A stretch of DNA of 64,000 nt, from the NCBI GenBank assembly GCA_028534125.1, contig CM052850.1, forward strand, positions 26,164,001 to 26,228,000, given 5' to 3'. Under the pieces are notes generated by a model. It searched no databases and had not been told where the DNA came from. It was given only the letters and a program-made list of their open reading frames with translations. This document shows, in pieces, positions 16,305 through 16,736 of the stretch. How positions within the stretch are numbered: position 1 is the first letter of the stretch; the number at the start of each line of letters is the position of its first letter. The translations under genes and the position numbers were made by a program. This DNA is from Lama glama. Its lineage: Eukaryota.

Positions 16305-16394
16305 CTTCAGGAAGGGGATGACGAAGGGCCTCAGAGGGAAGTTGGTGGCTTCCTGGAGCTGGGCGTGGAACTCCTCGATGGTCAGTGTGGAGTT
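16305..16394 (-). CDS. CBFA2T3: CBFA2T3 exon 5 ([34 protein letters not shown])
   Basis: ctcag|AAC acceptor and AAG|GTAAGG donor, 90 nt, phase 0-0. Confidence 0.97.
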
Positions 16395-16494
16395 CTGAGG
16401 GGAGACGACGCCTTGCTTCAGCCCAGGGAGGGCAGCGGGCCGAGGGCGGGGCGCGGCCTGGGCCCCCCGCCCCGCCCGGCCGCCAGCCACTCAC

Positions 16495-16736
16495 CACGAG
16501 CCCCAGCACCAGCGTGCGCACGCGGCCCCCGATCTCCGGGGAGATGTCGCCCCCGAACTGCTGCAGGGCGGCCAGGAAGCGCTTCAGCTTGCTCAGCTGC
16601 CGGGCCCCGCAGGCCGGGGGCAGCTGCTGCGCGGGCAGCGAGGCCGTGGGCGAGGTGGCCGGGCCATTGCTGAAGCCGTTGGGCGTGCACGGGGCGCCGT
16701 GGATGGCCGTCGGTGAGTGGCCGCTGCCGTTCATCA
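16495..16736 (-). CDS. CBFA2T3: CBFA2T3 exon 4 (MNGSGHSP...start of NHR1/[41 protein letters not shown])
   Basis: cag|TG acceptor and GTG|GTGAGT donor, 242 nt. Clear ETO-family TAFH sequence. Confidence 0.97.

What the first reader, a model, noticed from the sequence alone, without database searches (positions are those of the whole stretch)
16305..16736. TAFH/NHR1 domain remodelled by an apparent AT->GC sweep (candidate gBGC-driven protein change)
Seen in sequence: 78 of the 80 complete codons in exon 4 end in G/C, and the domain reads [23 protein letters not shown]...EEFHAQLQ. Recalled: human MTG16 and its paralog MTG8 read KRFLTTLQQFG(S/N)DISPEIGERVR...EEFHSKLQ. The upstream linker also differs (S>G, N>H, S>P twice, T>A). 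Nearly all changes go to Ala/Gly/Pro or other GC-richer codons. Helix 1 of TAFH helps form the groove that docks E-protein AD1 and N-CoR motifs. Inference: GC-biased gene conversion has overridden purifying selection in a very conserved corepressor, possibly altering E-protein repression in erythroid and other blood cells of this lineage. This is the strongest signal in the window.
Basis: partly seen in the sequence, partly recalled or inferred. Interest (0 to 1): 0.75.

Follow-up and report, generated by a model that had tools for sequence, protein, structure and literature searches.

The report
GC-shifted camelid MTG16 docking domain
In camels and alpacas, two neighbouring exons of the blood-cell corepressor gene CBFA2T3 carry about ten amino-acid changes, none toward A/T and nearly all toward G/C, on a narrow GC peak, likely the scar of an old recombination hotspot that mostly altered tolerant positions and spared the tested partner-binding residues.

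Summary
In detail: exon 4 has 78 of 80 codons ending in G/C. The window is a camelid; alpaca and Camelus proteins share the changes, so they are not assembly errors. Against 57 other placentals, exons 4-5 carry 10 camelid-shared changes (8 A/T->G/C, one two-step E175G, one neutral, 0 reverse); exons 6-12 carry 16 (8 versus 5 reverse). Adjacent introns are the GC maximum of the gene (74.5% versus 64.0%) without CpG-island character. An old gBGC episode is the best reading (about 0.6). Its defining test, synonymous and intronic substitutions on the branch, could not be run because no outgroup DNA was found. T160A is shared by all sampled artiodactyls. Three of five camelid TAFH residues occur in other mammals. 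The reported E-protein and PRDM14 contact residues are unchanged. Only G175 and Q197 are camelid-only. Pikas, colugos and desman show parallel GC-ward changes at overlapping sites. Exon-scale gBGC episodes are a known, common process, and this scan noted other gBGC-like peaks in this genome.

The parts
16495..16736 (-). CBFA2T3 (MTG16) exon 4: Ser/Pro linker plus TAFH/NHR1 helices 1-2; GC3 78/80; camelid changes S110G, N117H, S121C, S134P, S139P, T161A, S167G, E175G; T140A in window/alpaca only; T160A and H142Q shared with other artiodactyls
16395..16494 (-). Intron 4, 100 nt, 81% GC (top 0.5% of 100-bp windows in 1-52,000); non-CpG GC 0.91; no unusual RNA fold (z -0.88)
16305..16394 (-). Exon 5: TAFH helix 3 and the start of helix 4; camelid S196A and K197Q; the E-protein sites P208, P212 and F213 are unchanged
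16150..16900 (.). Narrow GC peak: intronic bases 74.5% GC versus 64.0% for the gene's introns; CpG o/e 0.54 (promoter-type island 0.98)
   Evidence: edges chosen after seeing the profile; fixed 150-nt exon flanks also rank exon 4 first and exon 5 second of 10
16524..16528 (-). Codon G175 (GGC), camelid-only, two base changes from Glu; gives Gly-Gly in predicted helix 2
16358..16365 (-). Codons A196 (GCC) and Q197 (CAG); Q197 is camelid-only; predicted helix 3
5401..12592 (-). Exons 6-12, used as the within-gene control (GC3 87%; camelid-shared changes 8 W->S, 5 S->W, 3 other)

Best explanation
Exons 4-5 of camelid CBFA2T3 carry a cluster of A/T->G/C amino-acid changes on a roughly 0.7-kb GC peak, likely left by GC-biased gene conversion at a recombination hotspot active mainly before camels and llamas split. 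Shown: the cluster, its one-way direction, its sharing by Camelus and Vicugna, the GC peak in adjacent introns, and a position 0.72 Mb from the end of the scaffold. Inferred: repair of hotspot heteroduplexes favoured G/C alleles and raised synonymous, intronic and non-synonymous sites together. Purifying selection still filtered the result, so the fixed changes fall in the low-constraint linker and at the few TAFH positions that other mammals also vary, while contact and core residues stayed fixed. The protein probably still binds E proteins; any effect is likely a modest change in stability or affinity (candidates E175G, K197Q, T161A).
For: Direction: 9 W->S (counting the two-step E175G) and 0 S->W among 10 camelid-shared changes in exons 4-5. 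P=0.02 against the 65% W->S share of the other 22 clades in the same exons. P=0.03 to 4e-5 under six mutation-opportunity models. Clustering: 12 of 25 camelid departures lie in exons 4-5 against 17.7% expected (P=0.0005; 10 of 26 and P=0.010 on the camelid-only list). Synonymous sites: GC3 78/80 versus 354/406. Non-coding sites: 0 of 893 overlapping 750-bp intronic windows reach the peak's GC; 12 of 893 reach its non-CpG GC. Both paralogues in the same genome keep TT/N/E. In other lineages, bursts in this domain part are also one-way: about 22 W->S to 1 S->W in lineages with 4 or more changes, versus 13 to 8 in the rest (hand tally; Fisher P=0.008). In murines, exon- and branch-specific episodes raise non-synonymous W->S 6.9-fold and approach GC3 of 94% (PMC12290510, section read).
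Against: No outgroup DNA was obtained, so the GC peak and high GC3 may be ancestral rather than camelid gains. Direction against the camelid's own exons 6-12 (9:0 versus 8:5) gives only P=0.054. The region was chosen after the fact and 23 clades were compared: P=0.010 does not survive that correction, though P=0.0005 does. Tolerated replacements of Ser/Thr/Asn/Lys/Glu are W->S by the structure of the code (65% in other clades). Short introns are often G-rich for splicing reasons (own knowledge). Polarity comes from column-wise commonest residues of predicted proteins, not a phylogenetic model.
Confidence: 0.6

Rival explanations
1. Ordinary nearly neutral drift or mild relaxation on a long camelid branch in a GC-rich subtelomeric region; the direction reflects which replacements these Ser/Thr-rich sites tolerate, and the GC peak is ancestral.
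For: Other clades show a 65% W->S share in these exons. Most camelid residues recur elsewhere. Camelids also changed invariant sites outside the peak: N464S and E465A against NE in 294 of 294 other proteins. Direction versus the rest of the gene P=0.054.
Against: Relaxation predicts S->W changes too, especially at the many CpG codons, yet there are none in 10. Changes are concentrated in 110 of 523 codons. Camelids rank first of 59 placentals for W->S differences in exons 4-5 but carry few differences in exons 6-12.
Confidence: 0.27
2. Positive selection on NHR1 partner binding, for example HIF1-alpha/glycolysis control or erythroid regulation, in camelids, with the GC direction incidental.
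For: MTG16 binding to HIF1-alpha needs N-terminal residues including NHR1 (PMC4431712, abstract only). Two camelid-only residues lie in the domain. Pikas share changes at five of the same sites.
Against: Selection does not explain GC3 or intronic GC. Half the changes are in the variable linker. The parallel changes also occur in colugos, tarsier and Old World monkeys, and are absent in the blind mole rat and fur seal. Two literature searches listed no camelid CBFA2T3 selection report.
Confidence: 0.13

Closest known systems
Exon- and lineage-specific ('punctual') gBGC episodes in murine rodents (Riffis, Saclier, Galtier 2025, PMC12290510; abstract and 'gBGC Episodes' section read)
   Same: One or two exons, one branch, GC3 near saturation (97.5% here; modelled equilibrium 94%), excess non-synonymous W->S.
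   Different: Those are defined by synonymous W->S excess mapped on a tree, which could not be tested here. They are common (29,845 episodes in about 70,000 exons). This one carries an unusually large protein load, 10-11 residues, over a long branch.
GC-driven divergent proteins of gerbils such as PDX1 (Dai, Pracana, Holland 2020, PMC7574485; abstract read)
   Same: A conserved transcriptional regulator with lineage-specific GC-ward amino-acid changes.
   Different: Gerbil cases lie in large GC-rich regions and are aberrantly divergent. Here the effect is about 0.7 kb, the rest of the gene is near balance, and core residues are kept.
PRDM9-independent hotspots at germline-hypomethylated CpG islands (Joseph et al. 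2024, PMC11161765; passages read; no mention of camel, alpaca or Vicugna in the main text)
   Same: A long-lived site could explain repeated episodes in camelids, pikas, colugos and desman.
   Different: The peak is not island-like (intronic CpG o/e 0.54, TpG/CpA o/e 1.31), and this genome has a PRDM9-like gene with open SSXRD, PR/SET and zinc-finger exons.
ETO-family TAFH/NHR1 domain (PF07531; PDB 2knh, 2pp4, 2h7b, 5ecj)
   Same: 87-93% identity, same helix layout, all reported contact residues kept.
   Different: A160/A161/G167/G175/A196/Q197; G175 and Q197 are seen in 0 of 321 other proteins.

Membership tests
CBFA2T3/MTG16 orthologue | Single-copy gene with NHR1-NHR4 and the expected exon order | tested here: met
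   Exons 4-12 translate to alpaca CBFA2T3 P0007; only two other matches (paralogues) in the genome
gBGC episode | Excess synonymous W->S substitutions on one branch in one exon | not testable with these tools
   No outgroup mammal DNA; only static GC3 78/80 versus 354/406
gBGC episode | Excess non-synonymous W->S over S->W | tested here: met
   9:0; P=0.02 versus other clades; P=0.054 versus own exons 6-12; marginal
gBGC episode | Hotspot-scale localisation reaching non-coding flanks | tested here: met
   Intronic GC 0.745; 0 of 893 windows as high; composition only, not branch-specific
gBGC episode | Derived-allele-frequency skew of W->S SNPs or measured recombination peak | not testable with these tools
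   No runs listed
PRDM9-independent CpG-island hotspot | Unmethylated CpG-island composition | tested here: not met
   Intronic CpG o/e 0.54 and TpG/CpA 1.31, versus 0.98 and 0.94 at the 52.6-54 kb island; 0.76 if the exons are included; a proxy for methylation
PRDM9-independent CpG-island hotspot | PRDM9 absent or broken | tested here: inconclusive
   SSXRD, PR/SET and zinc-finger exons are open at C35:26.88 Mb; the array is short in this assembly; KRAB not checked
Gerbil-type runaway GC region | Gene-wide or multi-gene extreme GC-ward divergence | tested here: not met
   Exons 6-12 show 8 W->S to 5 S->W; neighbouring genes not tested
E-protein-binding-defective NHR1 | Change at mouse F210, P209 or P205, or at the helix-1 lysine | tested here: not met
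   F213, P212, P208 and K154 unchanged; the full contact list (PMC2668852) was not available

The most novel reading that the evidence does not exclude
CBFA2T3 exons 4-5 are a long-lived intragenic recombination hotspot that has fired independently in camelids, pikas, colugos and desman and driven the same few NHR1 positions (160, 161, 167, 175, 196, 197) to GC-richer residues. This is a non-adaptive route to molecular convergence in a haematopoietic corepressor. In camelids the unique G175/Q197 combination measurably changes partner binding (E proteins, PRDM14 or HIF1-alpha).
Probability: 0.12. Interest if true: 0.7.

Novelty: new member of a known kind. Interest (0 to 1): 0.36.

Why it matters
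It is a clean candidate for recombination, rather than adaptation, changing a conserved protein domain, and a warning for camelid positive-selection scans. The parallel changes in pika, colugo and desman give a natural allelic series that maps which NHR1 positions tolerate change, and they could mimic adaptive convergence. If G175 or Q197 shifted partner binding, a neutral process would be linked to blood-cell regulation. The process itself is known and frequent, so the surprise is moderate.

Tried and rejected
Assembly error: rejected, because alpaca, wild camel, Bactrian camel and dromedary proteins agree. Duplicate or pseudogene copy: only two paralogues match. Changes shared broadly across mammals: true only for T160A and H142Q. 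No repeat inside the peak could serve as a neutral yardstick. Model-based branch mapping was not available, so polarity rests on column-wise comparison of living species. Musk deer was dropped (1 of 63 proteins, broken exon-4 model); three non-placentals were not counted. The single-sequence AlphaFold model (pLDDT 78.9; TM about 0.57 and rmsd 5-8 A to TAFH structures) was used only for helix limits. No complex prediction was run, since it could not resolve such substitutions. Intron 4 hairpin: not beyond shuffles (39 of 200). The 614-codon stop-free frame through exon 4 was judged chance (534 non-exon codons; 2 of 300 simulations of 3.2 kb reach 530). Hypoxia convergence does not fit the species pattern. 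The NHR3 PDB search was uninformative. The last step crashed and was redone.

Full report
Identity and anatomy. The finding covers exons 4 and 5 of CBFA2T3 (MTG16) on the minus strand: exon 4 at 16736-16495, a 100-nt intron, and exon 5 at 16394-16305. Exon 4 is 100% identical to Vicugna pacos and 99% to Camelus proteins; the other listed vertebrate proteins reach at most 89%. Exons 4-12 translate to alpaca P0007, whose numbering is used below. The window lies 0.72 Mb from the end of a 26.9-Mb scaffold. The only other genomic matches are two paralogues, which keep the usual TAFH residues.

Observation. 78 of 80 exon-4 codons end in G/C, against 354 of 406 in exons 6-12 (P=0.0055). Agreement among alpaca, wild camel, Bactrian camel and dromedary records excludes an assembly error.

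Which changes are camelid. I aligned 63 mammal proteins, dropped musk deer, and compared 59 placentals column by column with the commonest residue of the other clades. In exons 4-5 (110 codons) ten changes are shared by Camelus and the window and absent from pig, cattle, dolphin and horse. Eight are single A/T->G/C steps: S110G, N117H, S134P, S139P, T161A, S167G, S196A and K197Q. E175G needs two steps, one of them A->G, and S121C is C->G. None is G/C->A/T. T140A is a further W->S change in the window and alpaca only. T160A and H142Q are shared by the sampled pigs, ruminants and whales and predate camelids. Exons 6-12 (413 codons) carry 16 camelid-shared changes: 8 W->S, 5 S->W and 3 other.

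More than chance? Camelids have the most W->S differences in exons 4-5 of the 59 species (10 and 9; colugo 9, pika 7). Twelve of 25 camelid departures fall in these exons against 17.7% in the other 22 clades (P=0.0005). On the strict camelid-only list it is 10 of 26 (P=0.010), which does not survive correction for 23 clades. The 9:0 direction has P=0.02 against the 65% W->S share of other clades in the same exons, P=0.03 to 4e-5 under mutation-opportunity models, and P=0.054 against the camelid's own exons 6-12. The signal is real but moderate, and the region was picked after the fact.

Neutral sites. Intronic bases at 16150-16900 are 74.5% GC against 64.0% for the gene's introns. None of 893 overlapping 750-bp windows is as high, and 12 reach its non-CpG GC. 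With fixed 150-nt flanks, exons 4 and 5 rank first and second of ten. CpG o/e is 0.54 with TpG/CpA still in excess (1.31), unlike the island at 52.6-54 kb (0.98), so this looks like G/C gain in methylated DNA rather than an unmethylated island. This is composition only. Whether the gain happened on the camelid branch could not be tested, because three attempts to get outgroup or population DNA failed.

Protein consequences. A single-sequence model places helices at 149-165, 171-185, 191-202, 210-231 and 236-248 and finds TAFH structures first, but its packing is too poor for contacts. Ligands bind between helices 1 and 4 (PMC7948954, passages). The mouse Mtg16 sites that reduce E-protein binding or repression, F210, P209 and P205 (bioRxiv 2020.07.24.220525, passages and one section), correspond to F213, P212 and P208. 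The PRDM14 contacts R105, K109 and N141 of Mtgr1 (PMC4749557, passages) correspond to R150, K154 and N186. The polar AD1 contact K273 (PMC8283981, section) is a helix-1 lysine; my mapping to K154 uses a recalled offset, and K156 is also unchanged. All are invariant in 321 of 321 other proteins and in camelids (the 321 include isoforms). A161, G167 and A196 occur in 27, 12 and 65 of those 321, and the mouse donor oligo encodes Ala at 196 in a protein that binds E proteins normally. Only G175 (others E, A or D) and Q197 (others K or R) are camelid-only. By helical spacing T161A may face the groove (inference), but Old World monkeys, otter, meerkat and colugos also carry it. The full HEB contact list (PMC2668852) was not available.

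Parallel cases. In the same TAFH stretch pikas have 7 of 7 W->S changes (five at sites also changed in camelids), desman 4 of 4 and colugos 4 of 4, confirmed in two pika and two colugo species. Lineages with four or more changes give about 22 W->S to 1 S->W, and the others 13 to 8 (hand tally; P=0.008). This supports episodic GC bias acting on a small set of permissive sites. It also shows that the camelid case is not unique.

Mechanism. The best reading (0.6) is a gBGC episode at a hotspot, mostly on the camelid stem, filtered by purifying selection. The rivals are drift or relaxation with code-imposed direction (0.27) and positive selection (0.13), for example on the NHR1-dependent HIF1-alpha interaction (PMC4431712, abstract). 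The hotspot type is open: the peak is not island-like and a PRDM9-like gene has open exons, but recurrence across orders would suit a stable site.

Comparison and novelty. It works like the exon-specific episodes catalogued in murines (PMC12290510, abstract and section) and, on a much smaller scale, the gerbil cases (PMC7574485, abstract). Membership is likely but its defining synonymous test is untested. Searches for CBFA2T3 with camel, gBGC with camel or alpaca and PRDM9 with camelid listed nothing on this locus. Only listings were seen, the library lacks most subscription papers, and supplementary gene lists of camelid genome papers were not searched. Verdict: real, a new example of a known process, with the functional claim unsupported; interest 0.36.

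Noticed in passing
window 7247-7254 (exon 11, minus strand): Adjacent camelid-only changes N464S and E465A at the start of NHR3, both A->G/C; all 294 other proteins with the motif read NE and all 16 camelid ones SA. From memory this is the PKA-RII docking helix; not confirmed by a call.
   Followed up: partly
proteins P0180, P0310 (two pikas), P0217, P0222 (two colugos), P0038 (desman): Parallel one-way W->S changes in the same TAFH stretch: pika 7 of 7, colugo 4 of 4, desman 4 of 4.
   Followed up: partly
G000:C35:26883000-26888300: PRDM9-like gene near the scaffold end, 0.7 Mb from the window, with open SSXRD, PR/SET and zinc-finger exons; only about three tandem fingers before a stop, possibly a collapsed array.
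   Followed up: partly
window 52500-54000: Strong CpG island (GC 0.81, CpG o/e 0.98), likely a CBFA2T3 promoter.
   Followed up: no
window 19648-19962 (minus strand): Matches the alternative N-terminus of Camelus RefSeq isoforms P0010 and P0286 (94%), a predicted alternative first exon about 3 kb upstream of exon 4, in a second GC-rich patch.
   Followed up: no
window 16048-17892 (minus strand): 614-codon stop-free frame running through exon 4 and both flanking introns, the longest in the window; judged chance in GC-rich DNA.
   Followed up: yes
window 8056-8077 (exon 9): Two GT donors 21 nt apart; alpaca P0007 uses the upstream one and Camelus isoforms the longer form.
   Followed up: partly
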